Virus record (IMG/VR): IMGVR_UViG_3300029186_000016
Coordinates: 1 to 19,269 of that record
Length of the DNA stretch: 19,269 nucleotides
Reading direction: 5' to 3' (one strand)
Source of the DNA: a virus
Taxonomy: Duplodnaviria > Heunggongvirae > Uroviricota > Caudoviricetes
A program made the position numbers and the translations under genes. Shown piece by piece: positions 546-9,918 of the stretch; position 1 is the first letter of the stretch; every line of letters begins with the position of its first letter. Under the pieces are notes generated by a model. The model was not told the DNA's origin and searched no databases. It saw only the letters and a list, made by a program, of their open reading frames with translations.

Positions 546-1292
546 ATGAAAAATATCGCGGCAGGTGGTGTTCTTGAGCGTATCCGTAAGCTGACCCCGC
601 AGCATGTAATCGCGCCGTACCGGACAGTGGATGAGTGGCGCGAGTGGCAACTGGCTGAAGGGCGAAAACGTAGCGAGGAGATCAACCGCCAGAATCGCCA
701 GTTGCGGGTGGAAAAAATCCTGAATCGTTCGGGCATCCAGCCTCTGCACAGCAAATGCTCGTTTGCGAATTATCAGGTGCAGAACGACGGGCAAAAACAT
801 GCGCTGAGCCAGGCAAAATCCATCGCTGACGAACTGATGACCGGGTGCACGAATTTTGTGTTCAGCGGTAAGCCGGGTACCGGAAAGAACCACCTTGCAG
901 CCGCCATTGGCAATCATCTTCTGGCGAAAGGTCGCAGCGTGATTGTGATAACGGTGGCTGATGTGATGCTGGCGTTACACAACAGCTACGACAATAAAAA
1001 CTCAGGCGAAAAATTTTTACAGGGGTTGTGTGATGTTGACCTGCTTGTCCTGGATGAAATCGGAATGCAGCGGGATACGCGCAACGAGCAGGTCACACTG
1101 AACCAGATAGTCGACCGCAGAACTGCTTCGATGCGTAGTGTCGGAATGCTGACGAACCTGAACCACGTAGCGATGAGTACGCTTCTTGGCGAGCGTGTGA
1201 TGGACCGCATGGTCATGAACGGTGGTCGCTGGGTGAATTTTAACTGGGAGAGCTGGCGTTCGAATGTCAGACACCTGAGGGTTGTGAAGTAA
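546..1292 (+). CDS. DnaC/IstB-like AAA+ helicase loader
   Basis: Walker A GKPGTGKN and Walker B DLLVLDEIG are readable in the 248-aa translation. Sits immediately after the putative initiator gene. Confidence 0.85.
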   Translation: MKNIAAGGVLERIRKLTPQHVIAPYRTVDEWREWQLAEGRKRSEEINRQNRQLRVEKILNRSGIQPLHSKCSFANYQVQNDGQKHALSQAKSIADELMTGCTNFVFSGKPGTGKNHLAAAIGNHLLAKGRSVIVITVADVMLALHNSYDNKNSGEKFLQGLCDVDLLVLDEIGMQRDTRNEQVTLNQIVDRRTASMRSVGMLTNLNHVAMSTLLGERVMDRMVMNGGRWVNFNWESWRSNVRHLRVVK

Positions 1293-1306
1293 TTTCAGGA
1301 GGACTT

Positions 1307-1723
1307 ATGGTAAAAGTTTTTACTCCCGAACAACGGGAAGAAGTAAAGGCGCGTATTGTGGAACTGGTACGCAGAGATGGTAGGAAAACGCGTAAACAAC
1401 TGGAAAATGAAACAGGGGCGACGAGACATCTGATTGAAGTTCTGGCGAAAGAACTGGTAGACCGTGGTGTTGTATATGGTTCAGGGCATGGAATATTCCC
1501 TTCTGAGCAGGTACGTAAAGACTGGATAAAAGCCCATAAAGAGATGTCTAAAGGTGCAGCGAAAAAGAAGAGCGACCCTGGCCTGATTTATTCATTACCA
1601 GATGGAGAGATACGCCACTACGACAGGCGTCAGAACATAATCTGTCTCGAGTGCCAGAAAAGCAAGGTTATGCAGCGTGTGCTGGCATTTTATCAGGGTA
1701 ATTTTCAGGAGGTGATGGCGTGA
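1307..1723 (+). CDS. Hypothetical nin-region protein (138 aa)
   Basis: Long ORF with AGGAGG-type SD upstream (caggaggacttATG). Its stop overlaps the next start (GTGA). Basic N-terminus may bind nucleic acid; function unknown. Confidence 0.6.
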   Translation: MVKVFTPEQREEVKARIVELVRRDGRKTRKQLENETGATRHLIEVLAKELVDRGVVYGSGHGIFPSEQVRKDWIKAHKEMSKGAAKKKSDPGLIYSLPDGEIRHYDRRQNIICLECQKSKVMQRVLAFYQGNFQEVMA

Positions 1724-2016
1724 GGGTGAGGGTTTATATCGCCGGTCCAATGACGGGGTATGAAAATTTCAACCGTGAGGCGTTTCACAAGGCAGAAGAG
1801 GAACTGAAACGGGAAGGGCATACCGTTTTAAATCCGGCTGTGCTTCCGGATGGGCTGACACAGCCGCACTACATGGATATTTGCATGGCAATGATTCGTT
1901 GTGTGGATGCGATTTACATGCTGAAAGGCTGGCAGCGGTCAGCGGGCGCTAAGGCAGAGCTGGCACTGGCGGAGAAACTGGGGCATGCGGTGATTTATCA
2001 GGAGGTGGCTCAATGA
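1720..2016 (+). CDS. DUF4406-like small protein (nucleoside 2-deoxyribosyltransferase-like fold family), 98 aa
   Basis: GTG start overlapping the upstream stop. The N-terminal VYIAGPMTG motif resembles the Rossmann-like glycine loop of this family as I recall it; family call is from memory. Confidence 0.55.
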   Translation: MRVRVYIAGPMTGYENFNREAFHKAEEELKREGHTVLNPAVLPDGLTQPHYMDICMAMIRCVDAIYMLKGWQRSAGAKAELALAEKLGHAVIYQEVAQ

Positions 2017-2474
2017 GAGAGGTTAACTATGAGGCGCTTCGTGAGGCAGCACAAAACTATCAGTCGACGCTGGCGTGGTATCAGGCTATCCCGGACAGCC
2101 CAAATGCTGAACGGGATTGTGATGCGGCTCTTGCTGCGTTTAAGCGTCACATCCGTCATCGGGAAGCGGATATTATCGCTGATTTGCTGGATGGGCTGGA
2201 AGAAGCAAAATCACAACTCAACGAGCAGCGTGAGTATTACGAAGGCGTTATCTCTGATGGGAGCAAGCGTATTGCTGAACTGGAAGCGCGGGAAGTTCAA
2301 TTACCGACTCGCTACGACCTTCGATATGGACACCCGATAAATGCAGATGAGCGACATGTCATGATACCTAAAGAAAATGGCAGTTGGCTTTACCTGATTG
2401 ACCTAGAACACGCATTACGCGTCGCTGGCATTCGCATCAAAGGAGAGGAGCATGGAAATAAAACCAGAGGATGA
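2013..2474 (+). CDS. Hypothetical phage protein (153 aa)
   Basis: ATGA start/stop overlap with the upstream gene and same-strand operon context. No motif recognised. Confidence 0.55.
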   Translation: MREVNYEALREAAQNYQSTLAWYQAIPDSPNAERDCDAALAAFKRHIRHREADIIADLLDGLEEAKSQLNEQREYYEGVISDGSKRIAELEAREVQLPTRYDLRYGHPINADERHVMIPKENGSWLYLIDLEHALRVAGIRIKGEEHGNKTRG

Positions 2475-2808
2475 GTTAAGCAATATCGTTTTATTTCCGG
2501 TAAAAGAGGATGACCCTCGTAATCAGGTTAATTTTCTTTATGAGCCATCGGAAAGACCATATTGTCATCACGCCTCTGTCCGGGTTGACGAAAAAGAGCG
2601 TCAGGTCCGCTGTAAAATCTGCGGTGCAGTTGTGGAGCCATTTGACTGGATGCTCTCTGTGGCGAAAAGAGAAACCAGACTGGCAGATGATGTAAGGCTC
2701 TTGCGTCAGGAGGAGCGGGAAAGGCGAAAAAATATAGAAAAGCTAATTCAGATTGAGCGTAACGCGAAAGCGCGGATACGCAGGGCGACAAAATCCAGAA
2801 CTGAATAA
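2452..2808 (+). CDS. Hypothetical protein with putative zinc-ribbon (118 aa)
   Basis: Cys/His cluster C-HH...C-x2-C and a highly basic C-terminus. Overlaps the upstream gene by 23 nt. Confidence 0.5.
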   Translation: MEIKPEDELSNIVLFPVKEDDPRNQVNFLYEPSERPYCHHASVRVDEKERQVRCKICGAVVEPFDWMLSVAKRETRLADDVRLLRQEERERRKNIEKLIQIERNAKARIRRATKSRTE

Positions 2809-2878
2809 TTAAATTTAGCTCTGTTAAAAATTTAATCCTTAACCGGAGGGATTTCTGCACCCTCAGAACATCAGGAGG

Positions 2879-2894
2879 CCGCCCGAAAGGGCGG
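2879..2894 (+). promoter_or_regulatory. GNRA-tetraloop hairpin (CCGCCC-GAAA-GGGCGG) between the Shine-Dalgarno and the start codon of the 2902 gene
   Basis: Perfect 6-bp GC stem with a GAAA loop, directly 3' of AGGAGG (2873-2878) and 7 nt 5' of ATG 2902. Confidence 0.6.
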
Positions 2895-2901
2895 TAGTTA
2901 A

Positions 2902-3084
2902 ATGCGAAAGTTTAAAATAATTATTGAAACGGGAATAGCCGGTGGAGATTTCGAGGATGAATTCGAAGTGGATGATGATGCGACGCCTGATGAAATACAT
3001 GACGAAGCAAAAGATATTTTCTTTAACTACTGCAATTACTCATATCACGAAATAAAAGACGAAGAGGAAGAACAAAATGGCTGA
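2902..3084 (+). CDS. Small highly acidic protein (60 aa)
   Basis: ORF with AGGAGG SD separated from the ATG by the hairpin. Asp/Glu-rich composition. Its stop overlaps the next start (ATGGCTGA). Confidence 0.55.
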   Translation: MRKFKIIIETGIAGGDFEDEFEVDDDATPDEIHDEAKDIFFNYCNYSYHEIKDEEEEQNG

Positions 3085-3253
3085 TTTTGGTTCAACTAAA
3101 TACAACGTCAGTTTTGAAGAATGGCATGAACTGTTAATGGACTATGCAGAGTTACGTGGTGGCAGTGCTGCTGATGCTGAAGCATGGCGTGATGATTATG
3201 AAGCAGGAAAAACTCCGGTCGAAGCATATTGTGATGAGTGGGGCGATGAATGA
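3077..3253 (+). CDS. Small acidic protein (58 aa), missing from the ORF track because it is under 60 aa
   Basis: Hand-translated: MADFGSTKYNVSFEEWHELLMDYAELRGGSAADAEAWRDDYEAGKTPVEAYCDEWGDE. Its start overlaps the upstream stop and its stop overlaps the downstream ATG (ATGA), so it fills the gap between two coupled genes exactly. Confidence 0.5.
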   Translation: MADFGSTKYNVSFEEWHELLMDYAELRGGSAADAEAWRDDYEAGKTPVEAYCDEWGDE

Positions 3254-3765
3254 GCGAGATTAATTATCAGGAAGGGCATGAAACGGCAGGGCAGGCAAAA
3301 CCAGTTGCATGGCGATATCGCTACGTGAAAAAAGACGTTACAGACTTTCAGGGGAAGCCGTGGGCTGGTGACTGGAAATATGTACCGACAAAAGAGGATT
3401 GTAACGACAGGCCGAACTATGAAATTCAGGCCTTATTCATCGGCTCGCCAGTCCCGGTGACATCAGAAGGACTGGTTAAAGCCGTGCGCTTTTATGAACA
3501 GGTAAAGCGTGAGAATCCGCCAGTCGAAACAGGAGCATGGAAGGATGCTGTTGACTGGGTGCTCAGAGAGGCCTGCTGCGCTGCCATTCTGGGTAAAGCT
3601 GACAATCCACCAGCATCCGGCAATCAGGTTAGCGAATTAACAATGTGGGTTAAACGACTGGTCAGTCAACTGAAAAAAGCTCAGCCGGACTGCAAATTAC
3701 CGGAGAAGGCGATGGATTACCTGAAACGAAATGGACTGATAAGCGTGGAGGATGTTTTACGATGA
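3250..3765 (+). CDS. Hypothetical phage protein (171 aa)
   Basis: Translationally coupled to the upstream small ORF. No motif recognised. Confidence 0.55.
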   Translation: MSEINYQEGHETAGQAKPVAWRYRYVKKDVTDFQGKPWAGDWKYVPTKEDCNDRPNYEIQALFIGSPVPVTSEGLVKAVRFYEQVKRENPPVETGAWKDAVDWVLREACCAAILGKADNPPASGNQVSELTMWVKRLVSQLKKAQPDCKLPEKAMDYLKRNGLISVEDVLR

Positions 3766-3885
3766 ATATTTAGACTAAAGAGTTTGTAACGCTATGTAAG
3801 TGATTTTTTCTGGTTTAGATATTTATATGTCCGGCCAAATTGAGGTGTGTTTAAATGTTATTGCACATTGATTGTAGGGGGAATA

Positions 3886-4065
3886 ATGAAAAACGCATTG
3901 CAGTTTTTGTTTGTTGCGTTCTGGTTGTTCGCATCATGTATGCCCATCATCTTCACAGCAAGGTATATGGAAAAAATTGATGTTTTGATATTAATGTTTG
4001 GACATATAAATGCCCTTTTTTTAGGGGTGTTCATGGCGGTCATGTGCATTGAATACTGGCGGTAA
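3886..4065 (+). CDS. Small two-helix membrane protein (59 aa) in an AT-rich islet
   Basis: Internal ATG at 3886 preceded by a GGGGGAA SD. Two hydrophobic segments (ALQFLFVAFWLFASCMPIIF and IDVLILMFGHINALFLGVFMAVMCI). The 3847 start in the track lacks an SD. Confidence 0.45.
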   Translation: MKNALQFLFVAFWLFASCMPIIFTARYMEKIDVLILMFGHINALFLGVFMAVMCIEYWR

Positions 4066-4148: not shown

Positions 4149-4219
4149 AACTGCGGGTGCTTGAGGCTATCTGTCTCAGGCATGAACACCAAAAGGCAGA
4201 TAGAGAAAAGCCCCAGTTA

Positions 4220-4276
4220 ACATTACGCGTCCTGCAAGACGCTTAACATTAATCTGAGGCCCAATCTATGTCTCAC
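4220..4276 (-). ncRNA. Candidate Sok-like antisense RNA
   Basis: Minus-strand promoter-like hexamers inside the mok 5' end (-35 TTGCCT = plus 4306-4311, 17-bp spacer, -10 TAACCT = plus 4283-4288) would start a transcript about 9 nt into mok running antisense to the leader, as in known hok/sok loci. Contains hairpin GCGTC-n6-GACGC (plus 4227-4242). No clear U-tract terminator, so ends are uncertain. Confidence 0.3.
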
Positions 4277-4480
4277 AAATGTAGGTTAGCCTCTTACGTG
4301 CCGAAAGGCAAGGAGAAGCAGGCTATGAAGCAGCAAAAGGCGATGTTAATCGCCCTGATCGTCATCTGTTTAACCGTCATAGTGACGGCACTGGTAACGA
4401 GGAAAGACCTCTGCGAGGTACGAATCCGAACCGGCCAGATGGAGGTTGCTGTTTTCGTAGACTACGAATCTAGAGAGTAA
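4268..4480 (+). CDS. mok: mok-like reading frame (in-frame N-terminal extension of hok, 70 aa)
   Basis: ORF begins 57 nt upstream of the hok ATG in the same frame, as I recall for the chromosomal mokC/hokC and mokB/hokB pairs. Confidence 0.45.
   Translation: MSHKCRLASYVPKGKEKQAMKQQKAMLIALIVICLTVIVTALVTRKDLCEVRIRTGQMEVAVFVDYESRE
4325..4480 (+). CDS. hok: Hok/Gef-family type I toxin (51 aa)
   Basis: MKQQKAMLIALIVICLTVIVTALVTRKDLCEVRIRTGQMEVAVFVDYESRE has one N-terminal TM helix and the conserved RKDLCEV...EVA...YES signature of Hok/Gef/RelF proteins. GGAG SD upstream. Confidence 0.85.
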   Translation: MKQQKAMLIALIVICLTVIVTALVTRKDLCEVRIRTGQMEVAVFVDYESRE

Positions 4481-6365: not shown

Positions 6366-6731
6366 ATGACTGAACGCATAGAATTTGTTTTGCCTTACCC
6401 GCCAACGGTGAACACTTACTGGCGACGTCGTGGCAGCACATATTTTGTATCAAAAGCCGGTGAGCGTTATCGCCGGGATGTGGCGCTTATTGTTCGCCAG
6501 CAGCGGCTGAAATTAAACCTGTCCGGAAGGCTGGCGATAAAGATTATTGCAGAGCCACCGGATAAACGTCGTCGTGACCTGGACAATATCCTGAAAGCAC
6601 CACTGGATGCGCTGACGCATGCCGGACTTCTCATAGACGACGAGCAGTTTGATGAAATCAATATTGTGCGCGGTCAGCTCGTTCCTGGGGGGCGGCTGGG
6701 CGTGAAGATTTACAAAATTGAGAGTGAGTGA
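6366..6731 (+). CDS. rusA: Holliday-junction resolvase RusA
   Basis: The 121-aa translation carries the acidic RRRDLDNILKAPLDAL...DDEQ motifs of the RusA family. Its start overlaps the upstream stop. Confidence 0.85.
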   Translation: MTERIEFVLPYPPTVNTYWRRRGSTYFVSKAGERYRRDVALIVRQQRLKLNLSGRLAIKIIAEPPDKRRRDLDNILKAPLDALTHAGLLIDDEQFDEINIVRGQLVPGGRLGVKIYKIESE

Positions 6732-7282
6732 TCGTAAATATGATATATCCGGAAATTACAGGCAAAAGCGGCGAGCATTTACGTCTAAAAACGCTGGAAG
6801 CCGTCTGGATCCAGGGGAAATTACGGATGTGGGGGCGTTGGTCGTACATAGGTGGTGGCAAACCAGGAAATATGTTCAATCAGTTGCTGGCATCCAAAAA
6901 ACTGACAAAAACCGCAATCAATGAAGCCCTGCGTAGAATCAGGGAGTCAGGGATTGATAAACCAGAGCTGGAAGCATTCTTGCGAGAGATGATCGCTGGC
7001 AGACAGAAGAGCTGGTTGTCTCACTGTACTGATGCAGAGGCGTTACGCATTGATGGGGTGATAAGTAAAGCGCTTGCACGTTATCCTGGATTGATTGATA
7101 TCCTGCGGCAAAGGTACGAAGGGCGGGGGATGAGTAAACGCAAAATGGCTGAATTGTTGAATGAGGTTCACCCTGAGTGGTGCTATGCAACATGCCGCAA
7201 TCGTATAGATATGTGGCTGAGAATAGCTGAGTTTATTCTGTATCCACTGATGCGAGATGCATTTTCTTTTACTGACGCTTAG
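6728..7282 (+). CDS. Putative late-gene antiterminator (Q-like)
   Basis: Position immediately after rusA and before a promoter/terminator region, and a WGRW-type motif near the N-terminus as in some Q-family proteins. The true start may be the ATG at 6740. Family membership not verified. Confidence 0.55.
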   Translation: MIVNMIYPEITGKSGEHLRLKTLEAVWIQGKLRMWGRWSYIGGGKPGNMFNQLLASKKLTKTAINEALRRIRESGIDKPELEAFLREMIAGRQKSWLSHCTDAEALRIDGVISKALARYPGLIDILRQRYEGRGMSKRKMAELLNEVHPEWCYATCRNRIDMWLRIAEFILYPLMRDAFSFTDA

Positions 7283-9041: not shown

Positions 9042-9117
9042 GGCCCTTTAGCTCAGTGGTGAGAGCGAGCGACTCATAATCGCCAGGTCGCTGGTTCAAA
9101 TCCAGCAAGGGCCACCA
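9042..9117 (+). tRNA. ileZ: tRNA with anticodon CAU; resembles tRNA-Ile2 (lysidine type), though Met cannot be excluded from the anticodon alone
   Basis: Cloverleaf folded by hand: acceptor GGCCCTT/AAGGGCC, D-stem GCTC/GAGC, anticodon loop CTCATAA, T-loop TTCAAAT, encoded CCA. Sequence resembles E. coli ileX as I recall it. Confidence 0.8.
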
Positions 9118-9124
9118 TCACATA

Positions 9125-9201
9125 CCGCCATTAGCTCATCAGGATAGAGCGCCAGCCTTCGAAGCTGGTTGCGCGGGGTTCGAGTCCTCGATGGCGGTCC
9201 A
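9125..9201 (+). tRNA. argN: tRNA-Arg (anticodon UCG)
   Basis: Cloverleaf folded by hand: acceptor CCGCCAT/ATGGCGG (unusual C1:G72), D-stem GCTC/GAGC, anticodon stem CCAGC/GCTGG with loop CTTCGAA, T-loop TTCGAGT, encoded CCA. Confidence 0.75.
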
Positions 9202-9214
9202 TTATCTGTACCCT

Positions 9215-9291
9215 GCGTTGTTAGCTCAGCCGGACAGAGCAATTGCCTTCTAAGCAATCGGTCACTGGTTCGAATCCAGTACAACGCGCCA
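9215..9291 (+). tRNA. argO: tRNA-Arg (anticodon UCU)
   Basis: Cloverleaf folded by hand: acceptor GCGTTGT/ACAACGC, D-stem GCTC/GAGC, anticodon stem ATTGC/GCAAT with loop CTTCTAA, T-loop TTCGAAT, encoded CCA. Confidence 0.85.
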
Positions 9292-9305
9292 CACTTATTT
9301 TCCCT

Positions 9306-9331
9306 GGCTCGCTTTTGCGGGCCTTTTTTTT
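9306..9331 (+). terminator. Rho-independent terminator after the tRNA trio
   Basis: GGCTCGC-TTTT-GCGGGCC stem (one G-U pair) followed by T8. Confidence 0.7.
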
Positions 9332-9526
9332 AAATGTCTCACAATTCAGACGGTTGACTGTTGTCTGGTTGGCGGGGAGTTTGTTAAAAGAAACTGGCAT
9401 GGTGAATCCCCCTGTGCGGAGGGGCAATCAGCGAGTAGGTATATGGGATAATCGCGGATTCAGGTGCTGGTACTGAATTCACCGGGAGGCACCCGGCACC
9501 ATGCAATGGCACATAGCGCCACTCTC

Positions 9527-9562
9527 CAGCCCCTCTCCGGAGGGGCTGTTTATATTGATTTT
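9527..9562 (+). terminator. Strong GC hairpin plus T-rich tract (plus-strand terminator; also lies 3' of the minus-strand ORF)
   Basis: Perfect 9-bp stem CAGCCCCTC-TCCG-GAGGGGCTG followed by TTTATATTGATTTT. Confidence 0.65.
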
Positions 9563-9582: not shown

Positions 9583-9918
9583 TTATGGACTTTGTTGTTT
9601 TAGCCCATAAGGACATATTTGCAGAGTGCAACGGTTATTAAAGCATTCATTCAATACGTTATCTGTATTTGTAGGGCATTCCTGGCTGTTTTTGATTAAA
9701 TTCCAGAATGTTTTATTGAATGGTACTACGTTGTAAATGGTTACAGGTAGCACTTTGTTATTGAGCATGATGCCTGTGTGAGTCAGTGTAAATATACTTT
9801 CAGGAGGTAAGAAAGCATCCGATTGATACCAGATTATTAATTTTATTTTACTCCATATGACTGAAAAAGATATTCCGCATGATGGCTGGATAACTGTATC
9901 AATCACAATCCACTTCAT
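9583..9918 (-). CDS. Hypothetical protein (111 aa), AT-rich cargo gene on the opposite strand
   Basis: Only long ORF in a visibly AT-rich stretch. AAGGAAA SD 6 nt upstream of the ATG on the minus strand. Stop TAA. No recognisable motif or signal peptide. Confidence 0.45.

What the first reader, a model, noticed from the sequence alone, without database searches (positions are those of the whole stretch)
1307..3765. Nin-like block of seven tightly coupled small ORFs of unknown function
Seven ORFs (138, 98, 153, 118, 60, 58 and 171 aa) are chained by overlapping start/stop codons (GTGA, ATGA, ATGGCTGA). None has a function I can assign with confidence. One resembles DUF4406 (VYIAGPMTG), one has a zinc-ribbon-like Cys/His cluster, and two are extremely acidic, as is often seen for DNA-mimic or anti-restriction proteins. 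This early region of lambdoid phages is a known reservoir of host-takeover and anti-defence genes.
Basis: partly seen in the sequence, partly recalled or inferred. Interest (0 to 1): 0.45.

Follow-up and report, generated by a model that had tools for sequence, protein, structure and literature searches.

The report
Ordinary lambdoid prophage accessory-gene block
This is the tightly packed, dispensable stretch of early genes between the replication genes and the late-gene activator of a lambda-like E. coli prophage; it is real, built from shuffled cassettes of known but mostly uncharacterised phage gene families, and ordinary.

Summary
All seven + strand ORFs exist exactly as described. RefSeq annotates them identically in E. 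coli genomes that match 100%. They show purifying selection (pN/pS 0.05-0.38). The chain is really two chains, four genes and three genes, separated by a 93-nt spacer.

The block lies between an O-like/DnaC-like replication pair and a Q-like antiterminator. That is the nin position of a Rac/Qin-type lambdoid prophage. ATGA/GTGA gene overlaps are the textbook hallmark of that region.

No ORF is homologous to a lambda Nin protein.
- ORF1 is a lambda Ren relative (DUF977).
- ORF2 is DUF4406, distantly related to nucleoside deoxyribosyltransferases.
- ORF3 is an Ea22-family coiled-coil protein.
- ORF4 is a CxH...CxxC zinc ribbon followed by a 55-residue helix.
- ORF5 is DUF7167.
- ORF6 is a small acidic protein that also occurs in virulent phages.
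- ORF7 is a mosaic with an Ea22-type leader.

ORF3-ORF7 match the cassette found in the exo-xis region of Stx phages, here moved to the rightward operon.

Nothing links the two acidic proteins to known DNA mimics or anti-restriction families, but that reading is not excluded. Verdict: a real and already catalogued accessory region of low novelty.

The parts
546..1292 (+). Context, upstream anchor: DnaC/IstB-like helicase loader. An O-like initiator C-terminus lies at 156-539.
   Evidence: PF01695 at 66.9 bits; phrog_50 at E 2e-84; phrog_391 for 156-539.
1307..1723 (+). ORF1, 138 aa, basic (pI 9.6). Ren-like protein (DUF977) with a putative N-terminal winged-helix region and a Ren-type C-terminus.
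   Evidence: PF06163 at 109.9 bits. phrog_142 'Ren-like exclusion protein' at E 3.9e-40; lambda Ren hits the same family at 1.6e-41. BLASTP against lambda Ren gives E 1e-5. It sits directly after the loader gene, where lambda ren follows P. pN/pS is 0.28-0.38.
1720..2016 (+). ORF2, 98 aa, GTG start overlapping the ORF1 stop (GTGA). DUF4406, with distant sub-threshold similarity to nucleoside 2-deoxyribosyltransferases.
   Evidence: PF14359 at 129.4 bits. DUF1937 at 23.0 bits. Nuc_deoxyrib_tr is sub-threshold, with 6 of 32 relatives at E down to 5e-4. phrog_355 at E 2e-48. Y6, D53, S74, G76 and E80 are invariant. pN/pS is 0.05.
2013..2474 (+). ORF3, 153 aa. Ead/Ea22-family protein with the Ea22 N-terminal leader and coiled coil, but a non-lambda C-terminal domain.
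   Evidence: PF13935 at 46.7 bits, cutoff 27. 39% identity to lambda Ea22 over residues 1-108, with LNEQREYYEGVISDGSKRIAELE nearly identical. No PDB sequence hit. pN/pS is 0.21.
2452..2808 (+). ORF4, 118 aa, overlapping ORF3 by 23 nt. A CxH-x13-CxxC zinc ribbon followed by one 55-residue helix with a basic ERNxKARxxRA end.
   Evidence: The family has 629 representatives at 50% clustering. C38, C54 and C57 are invariant and H40 is >=90% conserved. AF2 mean pLDDT is 87.8, with strands 43-54 and helix 63-117. The only structural match is the TFIIB zinc ribbon, prob 0.93, E 0.19. phrog_1621 at E 2e-57. pN/pS is 0.10.
2873..2901 (+). Leader of ORF5: Shine-Dalgarno AGGAGG (2873-2878), then a 7-bp hairpin with a GAAA tetraloop (2878-2895), then 6 nt before the ATG. 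It lies inside the 93-nt spacer (2809-2901) that marks the module boundary.
   Evidence: Sequence. Centroid fold. The leader travels with ORF5 behind a different upstream gene in 8 loci, and variants keep pairing through G.U pairs and a GNRA loop. No U tract, and no terminator called.
2902..3084 (+). ORF5, 60 aa, pI 4.05, net charge -15. DUF7167.
   Evidence: PF23768 at 55.1 bits, cutoff 24.4. phrog_1997 at E 9e-31. Homologues of 37-48% identity occur in Klebsiella Guernseyvirinae, Enterococcus Herelleviridae and Phapecoctavirus-type phages. pN/pS is 0.06.
3077..3253 (+). ORF6, 58 aa, pI 4.05, net charge -12. Small acidic protein with no Pfam family (phrog_519).
   Evidence: phrog_519 at E 4.5e-23. 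No Pfam hit. tblastn finds homologues in 202 phage records, including Ackermannviridae, a 116-kb Escherichia phage and Morganella phage Mecenats66. Conserved motif F..W...L...A...GG.A..A..W..DY..G. pN/pS is 0.13.
3250..3765 (+). ORF7, 171 aa. Mosaic protein with an Ea22-type leader (MSEINYQ), a beta-rich module (17-62), a conserved helical core (70-110) and a C-terminal helical module (115-171).
   Evidence: phrog_660 at E 2e-75, plus a local hit to Ea22-type phrog_250. Alignment A1 shows modules 17-110 attached to Ea22 coiled coils or DUF551 in other proteins. The AF2 model is poor, mean pLDDT 51.6, confident only for ~18-63. pN/pS is 0.25.
6728..7282 (+). Context, downstream anchor: Q-like antiterminator that closes the nin-equivalent region. 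Between ORF7 and it lie hok/sok, two small ORFs, DUF968/HNH and RusA.
   Evidence: phrog_753 'anti-termination protein Q-like' at E 9e-79. RusA phrog_34 at E 1.5e-56. sok RNA at 120 bits. PGAP annotation.

Best explanation
The block is the promoter-proximal part of the nin-equivalent accessory region in the early-right operon of a Rac/Qin-type lambdoid prophage. The prophage has DicA/DicC-type immunity and its integrase end adjoins potC.

Expression (inferred). The genes have no promoter of their own. They are read through from the early-right promoter, via the replication genes, towards Q. Stop/start overlaps couple their translation.

Composition (shown). The block is a mosaic of independently exchangeable cassettes:
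- (A) A Ren-like protein with a putative winged-helix region, plus a DUF4406 protein distantly related to nucleoside deoxyribosyltransferases.
- (B) An Ea22-family coiled-coil protein plus a zinc-ribbon/long-helix protein.
- (C) Two small acidic proteins plus a mosaic protein with an Ea22-type leader.
Cassettes B and C are the same genes that Stx phages carry in the leftward exo-xis region.

Function (inferred by analogy with lambda ren, ea22 and the nin/exo-xis genes). These are non-essential modulators of the phage-host interaction, not core functions.
- ORF1: tolerance of Rex-type exclusion, or a replication-linked role.
- ORF2: binding or N-glycosidic cleavage of a nucleoside or nucleotide, using the invariant Glu80.
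- ORF3, possibly together with ORF4: biasing the lysis-lysogeny decision.
- ORF5 and ORF6: binding and titrating a host or phage protein.

Status. Position, family membership, mosaicism and selection are shown. Co-transcription, coupling and all biochemical roles are inferred.
For: Position:
- O-like and DnaC-like genes lie upstream and a Q-like gene lies downstream.
- PGAP context in the 100%-identical genome runs int-xis-exonuclease-dicB...dicA/dicC-ydaT-replication-block-hok-DUF968-rusA-Q-like-lysis-terminase.
- No sigma-70-like promoter was found on the + strand within 1307-3765, and no terminator-like site.
- ATGA packing and non-essentiality of nin regions are published (PMC8022706).

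Families:
- Ren, DUF4406, Ea22 and DUF7167.
- The ORF4 zinc-ribbon family.

Mosaicism:
- Presence/absence patterns in 80 IMG/VR loci show ORF5-7 gained or lost as a unit at the spacer.
- ORF1 alleles are 55-68% identical next to ORF2 alleles that are 96-99% identical.
- 100 of 5,426 E. coli genomes carry >=80% of the queried segment (window 1200-3900), while 3,821 carry pieces.
- The exo-xis location in phage ArgO145 is shown.
- The Ea22-like / zinc-ribbon gene pairing recurs at 33% identity in Enterobacter phage Tyrion.

Selection: pN/pS 0.05-0.38.

Functional analogies:
- Ea22 is pro-lysogenic and tetrameric (PMC10834534).
- Ren gave a two-hybrid interaction with the Rex proteins (bioRxiv 10.1101/2021.04.19.439022).
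Against: No expression data were examined, so co-transcription and translational coupling are inferred from layout only.

The Ren relationship is distant: 32% identity over 57 aligned positions. The Rex phenotype may not transfer to a prophage with DicA-type immunity.

ORF2's link to deoxyribosyltransferases is sub-threshold in Pfam, and a profile search found no PDB relative. The catalytic role of Glu80 rests on a motif comparison from memory.

ORF3 lacks the lambda-type C-terminal domain, and ORF7 lacks the coiled coil. Ea22 function may therefore not carry over.

ORF4, ORF6 and ORF7 have no informative homologue of any kind.
Confidence: 0.8

Rival explanations
1. Anti-restriction / DNA-mimic reading. 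ORF5 and/or ORF6 fold into small acidic proteins that imitate DNA. They would block host nucleases or restriction enzymes (type I R-M, RecBCD/AddAB or similar) early in infection.
For: - Charge density is -0.25 and -0.21 per residue, with pI 4.05.
- Both families are under strong purifying selection.
- Both are spread across unrelated temperate and virulent phages. ORF6 relatives occur in Ackermannviridae and in 86-kb and 116-kb phages of Morganella and Escherichia. ORF5 relatives occur even in Enterococcus Herelleviridae. That spread fits a conserved, widespread target.
- ORF5 homologues abut exonuclease genes in two unrelated lineages. By my recollection, this is also where T7 places its RecBCD inhibitor gp5.9, next to gene 6.
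Against: - No hit to any known anti-restriction or mimic family in Pfam, PHROGs, NCBIfam, PADLOC or PDB.
- Acidity alone is common among small early phage proteins.
- The exonuclease adjacency is absent in Phapecoctavirus-type phages and in Klebsiella lambdoids.
Confidence: 0.15
2. Prophage-encoded defence or superinfection-exclusion island. The block would be expressed from the lysogen to protect the host against other phages.
For: Lambdoid prophages often carry defence morons. A hok/sok module lies just downstream. PHROG files ORF1's family under 'moron, auxiliary metabolic gene and host takeover'.
Against: - No PADLOC hit apart from one chance-level match at E 0.033.
- No promoter-like site inside the block, and all genes are co-oriented and overlapped with the repressed early operon.
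- The same genes sit in the lytic early-left operon of Stx phages and in virulent phages. That fits phage-side functions, not lysogen-side ones.
Confidence: 0.05
3. Some or all of the seven ORFs are decayed remnants or chance ORFs in a cryptic prophage and make no functional protein.
For: Rac/Qin-type prophages are often defective. ORF7 is highly mosaic and folds poorly in AF2.
Against: - All distinct alleles are intact except one ORF4 allele, with pN/pS well below 1.
- Family-level conservation extends to distant phages.
- The surrounding prophage retains lysis, terminase, portal and capsid genes.
Confidence: 0.03

Closest known systems
Lambda/P22 nin region (ren through Q, early-right operon)
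   Same: Same position between the replication genes and Q. Same dense packing with ATGA/GTGA stop-start overlaps. Both include a Ren-family first gene and a downstream Holliday-junction resolvase (RusA here).
   Different: None of ORF1-7 is homologous to NinB-NinI. Most of the gene content comes from ea/exo-xis-type families.
Lambda Ren (phrog_142, 'Ren-like exclusion protein')
   Same: ORF1 and lambda Ren both match phrog_142 over their full length at about E 1e-40. They share the C-terminal ECxxSxxMxRVLAxY motif. Each follows the loader gene directly.
   Different: ORF1 is 42 residues longer and only 32% identical over 57 aligned positions. The host prophage has DicA-type rather than CI/Rex-type immunity. 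The Rex phenotype is untested.
Lambda Ea22 / P22 Ead family and the exo-xis cassette of Stx phages
   Same: ORF3 has the Ea22 leader and coiled coil, with a nearly identical 23-residue stretch. [quoted passage not shown]
   Different: Here the cassette is in the rightward operon. ORF3 has a different C-terminal domain from lambda Ea22. ORF7 keeps only the leader and lacks the coiled coil. ArgO145 has one extra 70-aa gene where the window has the 93-nt spacer.
Nucleoside 2-deoxyribosyltransferase / DNPH1 (Rcl) superfamily
   Same: ORF2 (DUF4406) has sub-threshold Pfam similarity to it, and 29 of 32 relatives weakly match DUF1937. It carries an invariant S-x-G-A-x-x-E motif that resembles the D-x-G-T-x-x-E catalytic motif (my recollection).
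   Different: At 98 aa it is much shorter than typical members. It scores below the Pfam cutoff for PF05014. No PDB relative was found by profile search. Activity is unknown.
Small acidic phage inhibitors that mimic DNA (T7 Ocr, T7 gp5.9, ArdA, lambda Gam)
   Same: ORF5 and ORF6 resemble them in size class, extreme acidity, early expression context and, for ORF5 relatives, occasional adjacency to an exonuclease gene.
   Different: No sequence or profile similarity to any of them. No structural evidence. No functional test.

Membership tests
Lambdoid nin region (positional definition) | Lies in the early-right operon between the replication genes and the Q antiterminator | tested here: met
   O-like and DnaC-like genes lie upstream. 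A Q-like gene (phrog_753, E 9e-79) lies downstream. Gene order is shown.
Lambdoid nin region (positional definition) | Exceptionally tight packing with overlapping ATGA-type stop/start codons | tested here: met
   Overlaps of 4, 4, 23, 8 and 4 nt, plus one 93-nt gap. The hallmark is described in PMC8022706.
Lambda Nin proteins (NinB-NinI) | Sequence homology of the ORFs to lambda Nin proteins | tested here: not met
   BLASTP of ORF1-7 against lambda NinB, C, D, E, F, G, H and I gave no hit at E<=1.
Ren family (phrog_142 / DUF977) | Full-length profile match shared with lambda Ren | tested here: met
   ORF1 scores E 3.9e-40 and lambda Ren scores E 1.6e-41 against the same PHROG. Pairwise BLASTP gives E 1e-5. 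PF06163 scores 109.9 bits.
Ren family (phrog_142 / DUF977) | Confers resistance to Rex exclusion | not testable with these tools
   This is a genetic phenotype and needs a plating assay on RexAB hosts.
Ead/Ea22 family (PF13935) | N-terminal leader plus central coiled coil matching the Pfam model above its cutoff | tested here: met
   ORF3 scores 46.7 bits against a cutoff of 27. It is 39% identical to lambda Ea22 over residues 1-108.
Ead/Ea22 family (PF13935) | Lambda-type C-terminal domain | tested here: not met
   The alignment to lambda Ea22 ends at residue 108. No PDB sequence match was found. Variable C-terminal domains are normal for the family (PMC10834534).
Ead/Ea22 family (PF13935), applied to ORF7 | Pfam match or coiled coil | tested here: not met
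   ORF7 has no Pfam hit. It shares only the first ~16 residues with Ea22 proteins. Modules 17-110 occur as the C-terminal part of some Ea22-like proteins.
DUF4406 (PF14359) | Pfam model above the gathering score | tested here: met
   129.4 bits against a cutoff of 22, covering positions 2-91 of the 91-position model.
Nucleoside 2-deoxyribosyltransferase family (PF05014) | Profile match and catalytic Glu in a D-x-G-T-x-x-E-like motif | tested here: inconclusive
   13.8 bits against a cutoff of 28.8. Six of 32 relatives reach E down to 5e-4. E80, S74 and G76 are invariant. No PDB relative was found by profile search. The motif equivalence is from memory, not from an alignment.
DUF7167 (PF23768) | Pfam model above the gathering score | tested here: met
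   ORF5 scores 55.1 bits against a cutoff of 24.4.
Zinc ribbon (TFIIB-type, PF08271) | Four metal ligands on two knuckles flanking a beta hairpin | tested here: inconclusive
   The C38-x-H40...C54-x2-C57 ligands are invariant or >=90% conserved in 60 relatives. The AF2 hairpin at 43-54 has pLDDT above 90. Foldseek finds the TFIIB ribbon at prob 0.93 but E 0.19. The Pfam score of 21.6 is below the cutoff of 29. Metal binding is untested.
DksA/TraR zinc-finger regulators (such as lambda Orf73) | Match to the DksA/TraR zinc-finger model, with the coiled coil N-terminal to the finger | tested here: not met
   No such Pfam hit for ORF4 or for 60 relatives. The domain order is reversed, with the ribbon first and the helix after it.
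Known anti-restriction / DNA-mimic families (Ocr, ArdA, Gam, gp5.9) | Sequence or profile similarity to a known member | tested here: not met
   Pfam, PHROGs, NCBIfam and PADLOC gave no relevant hit for ORF5 or ORF6. PDB profile searches returned nothing or only designed proteins.
Known anti-restriction / DNA-mimic families (Ocr, ArdA, Gam, gp5.9) | Surface array of carboxylates that mimics the DNA backbone; inhibition of a nuclease | not tested
   Both structure-prediction jobs went to ORF7 and ORF4. Only bulk charge was measured.
Known anti-phage defence systems (PADLOC) | Match to a defence-system protein model | tested here: not met
   Only one chance-level hit, ORF4 against MTase_II at E 0.033.

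The most novel reading that the evidence does not exclude
ORF5 (DUF7167) and/or ORF6 could be founding members of uncharacterised families of small acidic inhibitors, either DNA mimics or protein decoys. They would neutralise a widely conserved host nuclease or defence component. That would explain their presence in unrelated temperate and virulent phages of Enterobacteria and, for DUF7167, of Enterococcus. It would also explain the occasional placement of DUF7167 next to phage exonuclease genes. A second, weaker possibility is that the DUF4406 protein cleaves or sequesters a nucleotide used in host immune signalling.
Probability: 0.15. Interest if true: 0.55.

Novelty: already known. Interest (0 to 1): 0.17.

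Why it matters
The finding matters little as a discovery. The region type, its packing and most of its gene families are already catalogued, and identical copies are annotated in RefSeq.

Its value is as a clean worked example of lambdoid mosaicism. An exo-xis-type cassette sits at the nin position, and the module boundaries fall on gene junctions.

It also yields three concrete candidates for experiment:
- two widely distributed small acidic proteins;
- a 629-cluster zinc-ribbon/coiled-coil family with no Pfam entry;
- a minimal DUF4406 protein distantly related to deoxyribosyltransferases.
If any of these proved to be an anti-defence factor, the interest would rise.

Tried and rejected
1. 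PDB sequence and profile searches gave nothing meaningful. I ran ORF1, ORF2 and ORF3 as single sequences, and ORF2, ORF4, ORF5, ORF6 and ORF7 as alignment profiles. The only hits were coiled-coil noise, designed proteins and an ORF2 profile hit to 3ndn at E 0.017, which I judged spurious.

3. The AF2 model of ORF4 is good. Foldseek against PDB and BFVD matched only the ribbon. The afdb50 library was unavailable.

4. NCBIfam and PADLOC gave no useful hit.

5. I tested whether ORF1 equals K-12 YdaW. It does not (BLASTP E 13), so the retron-blocker result reported for ydaW does not apply.

6. I considered ORF4 as a TraR/DksA-like protein and rejected it: no Pfam match and reversed domain order.

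7. I considered the hairpin at 2878-2895 as an intrinsic terminator or nut-like boxB. It has no U tract and no terminator was called. A split ribosome-binding site fits better, but this is untested.

8. I tested whether DUF7167 is always next to an exonuclease. It is in two lineages and not in others.

9. The 'DUF5419' label on a Morganella phage homologue of ORF6 found no Pfam support.

10. Literature searches for DUF4406, DUF977, DUF1937 and DUF7167 found no functional study.

With the ORF5 alignment it returned only 100%-identical copies.

Full report
**Observation**

The ORF list and sequence show seven + strand ORFs at exactly the stated coordinates and sizes. Their spans are 1307-1723, 1720-2016, 2013-2474, 2452-2808, 2902-3084, 3077-3253 and 3250-3765.

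Four junctions are the quoted overlaps: GTGA at 1720, ATGA at 2013, ATGGCTGA at 3077 and ATGA at 3250. Two junctions were not described. ORF3 and ORF4 overlap by 23 nt, and a 93-nt non-coding spacer separates ORF4 from ORF5. The block is therefore a four-gene chain followed by a three-gene chain.

ORF5 and ORF6 have pI 4.05 and net charges of -15 and -12. They are also AT-richer than the window (GC 0.37 and 0.44 against 0.51).

**Are they genes?**

- The segment 1200-3900 is 100% identical to several RefSeq E. coli chromosomes, and PGAP annotates the same seven CDS there.
- Every ORF hits a PHROG family at E between 1e-23 and 1e-75.
- Across 80 IMG/VR loci, all distinct alleles are intact except one ORF4 allele. 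pN/pS against the window is 0.05 (ORF2), 0.21 (ORF3), 0.10 (ORF4), 0.06 (ORF5), 0.13 (ORF6) and 0.25 (ORF7).
- Divergent ORF1 alleles give 0.28-0.38.
- These counts are not phylogenetically independent, but the direction is clear.

**Context**

Upstream lie the C-terminus of an O-like initiator and a DnaC/IstB-like loader. Downstream lie a hok/sok module, two small ORFs, a DUF968/HNH protein, RusA and a Q-like antiterminator. After those come a DNA methyltransferase, tRNAs, lysis genes and terminase.

The identical chromosome places int, xis, an exonuclease, dicB and dicA/dicC to the left, with the integrase end of the prophage adjoining potC. This is a Rac/Qin-type lambdoid prophage.

The block therefore occupies the nin position of the early-right operon. 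No promoter-like site lies on the + strand inside it, and no terminator-like site was found. The literature describes lambdoid nin regions as non-essential and 'exceptionally tightly packed' with overlapping ATGA motifs (PMC8022706).

**What the genes are**

By homology the block is not made of Nin proteins. BLASTP of all seven against lambda NinB-NinI gave nothing at E<=1.

ORF1 is DUF977 (110 bits).
- It matches phrog_142, 'Ren-like exclusion protein', over its full length at E 3.9e-40. Lambda Ren itself matches the same family at 1.6e-41.
- The pairwise alignment is weak but significant (E 1e-5) and shares a C-terminal ECxxSxxMxRVLAxY motif.
- Like ren after P, ORF1 directly follows the loader gene.
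- Both proteins have weak MarR/winged-helix signals at the N-terminus.

ORF2 is DUF4406 (129 bits).
- Twenty-nine of 32 relatives also touch DUF1937, and six touch the nucleoside 2-deoxyribosyltransferase model.
- Y6, D53, S74, G76 and E80 are invariant.
- No solved relative was found.

ORF3 is an Ead/Ea22-family protein (46.7 bits).
- Its leader and coiled coil match lambda Ea22, including a nearly identical LNEQREYYEGVISDGSKRIAELE stretch.
- Its C-terminal domain is different.
- Variable C-terminal domains are typical of the family. Ea22 is tetrameric and pro-lysogenic, and its molecular target is unknown (PMC10834534).

ORF4 belongs to a family with 629 clusters at 50% identity.
- C38, C54 and C57 are invariant and H40 is nearly so. 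A DPFD motif follows, and the protein ends in a basic ERNxKARxxRA stretch.
- AlphaFold (pLDDT 87.8) predicts a small zinc ribbon followed by a single 55-residue helix.
- The only structural resemblance is to the TFIIB ribbon.
- No Pfam model passes its cutoff.

ORF5 is DUF7167 (55 bits).

ORF6 has no Pfam family. It does have clear homologues (45-60% identity) in 202 phage records, many of them virulent. These include Ackermannviridae, a 116-kb Escherichia phage and an 86-kb Morganella phage.

ORF7 (phrog_660) starts with the Ea22 leader MSEINYQ and is otherwise a patchwork.
- Its modules 17-62 and 70-110 occur in other proteins as the C-terminal part of Ea22-like coiled-coil proteins, or fused to DUF551.
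- Its model is poor.

**Mosaic structure**

- In 80 loci anchored on ORF2, ORF5-ORF7 are present or absent as a unit, and the break is at the spacer. ORF3 and ORF4 usually travel together.
- ORF1 alleles differ by 32-45% in protein sequence, while the adjoining ORF2 stays 96-99% identical. Even the GTGA junction is therefore an exchange point.
- In Stx phage ArgO145 and Stx2a phages, the same genes lie in the leftward early operon between the exo/bet/gam genes and int. The series there runs Ea22-like, zinc ribbon, DUF7167, the 58-aa protein and another Ea22-like gene. This is the classic exo-xis region.
- The last 17 residues of ORF3 are shared with an otherwise different ArgO145 Ea22-like protein. 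The reason is that they overlap the start of ORF4.
- The pairing of an Ea22-like gene with an ORF4 relative, again with an overlap, recurs at 33% identity in Enterobacter phage Tyrion. Elsewhere ORF4 relatives follow NinG or a NinX-like gene.
- One hundred of 5,426 complete E. coli genomes carry at least 80% of the queried segment (window 1200-3900). Pieces occur in 3,821.

**Mechanism**

The best-supported account is this. The genes are dispensable early-operon passengers. They are read through from the early-right promoter and translationally coupled. They are exchanged as cassettes by recombination at conserved junctions.

By analogy with lambda ren, ea22 and the nin/exo-xis genes, they tune the phage-host interaction rather than carry out core functions. 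The individual roles assigned in the best-explanation section are inferences.

**The DNA-mimic idea**

For:
- high charge density;
- strong selection;
- a broad phage host range, which for DUF7167 includes Enterococcus phages;
- adjacency of DUF7167 genes to exonuclease genes in two unrelated lineages.

Against:
- no similarity to any known mimic or anti-restriction family in any library;
- the exonuclease adjacency is not general;
- acidity is common in small early proteins.

No structure could be predicted for these two proteins. I put this reading at about 0.15.

**Comparison and verdict**

The region type, its packing and five of the seven families are catalogued, and identical annotated copies exist. 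That makes it 'already known' in kind, and the finding is ordinary.

The residual interest lies in the untested small acidic proteins, the large unnamed zinc-ribbon/coiled-coil family and the minimal DUF4406 protein.

Noticed in passing
window 2873-2904: The leader of ORF5 looks like a split ribosome-binding site. AGGAGG (2873-2878) lies 23 nt upstream of the ATG, and a 7-bp hairpin with a GAAA tetraloop (2878-2895) sits in between. Folding would bring the Shine-Dalgarno to about 6 nt from the start. The 33-nt leader travels with ORF5 behind a different upstream gene in 8 loci. Rare variants keep pairing through G.U pairs and a GGCA loop.
   Followed up: partly
window 4155-4480: A hok/sok toxin-antitoxin module lies just downstream of the block. 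The Rfam sok match is 120 bits at 4155-4330, and the Hok/Gef ORF ends at 4480.
   Followed up: no
window 9042-9557 and 9583-9918 (-): Three tRNA genes (Ile, Arg, Arg) and an STnc100 sRNA match (133 bits) follow the prophage DNA methyltransferase. An iraM anti-adapter gene lies on the opposite strand.
   Followed up: no
window 1720-1723 (ORF1/ORF2 junction); loci L005-L084: There is a sharp mosaic boundary exactly at the GTGA overlap. ORF1 alleles are only 55-68% identical in protein sequence, while the adjacent ORF2 is 96-99% identical in the same loci.
   Followed up: partly
window 3077-3253; L172-L175: ORF6 relatives (45-60% identity) are single small genes in virulent phages of several families: Ackermannviridae Ag3 and Magnus, Morganella phage Mecenats66, and Enterobacter phage Arya. 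One is labelled DUF5419, a label Pfam does not support.
   Followed up: partly
window 2902-3084; L086-L088: DUF7167 homologues overlap the start of a 454-aa exonuclease gene in Klebsiella Guernseyvirinae. They overlap the end of a 180-aa exonuclease gene in Enterococcus Herelleviridae. They are not next to an exonuclease in Phapecoctavirus-type phages.
   Followed up: partly
window 2424-2474; L002 6578-6628: The C-terminal 17 residues of ORF3 (AGIRIKGEEHGNKTRG) are conserved in an otherwise different 344-aa Ea22-like protein of phage ArgO145. This appears to be because the stretch overlaps the ribosome-binding site and start of ORF4.
   Followed up: yes
hit H12, PP818812.1 (Actinobacillus phage vB_Apl-pPE4): A phage recorded as infecting Actinobacillus pleuropneumoniae carries a segment 93% identical at DNA level to this E. 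coli prophage block. That is unexpected for its stated host.
   Followed up: no
window 2902-3253: ORF5 and ORF6 have clearly lower GC (0.37 and 0.44; GC3 0.33 and 0.27) than the window average of 0.51. This fits a different origin for this cassette.
   Followed up: no
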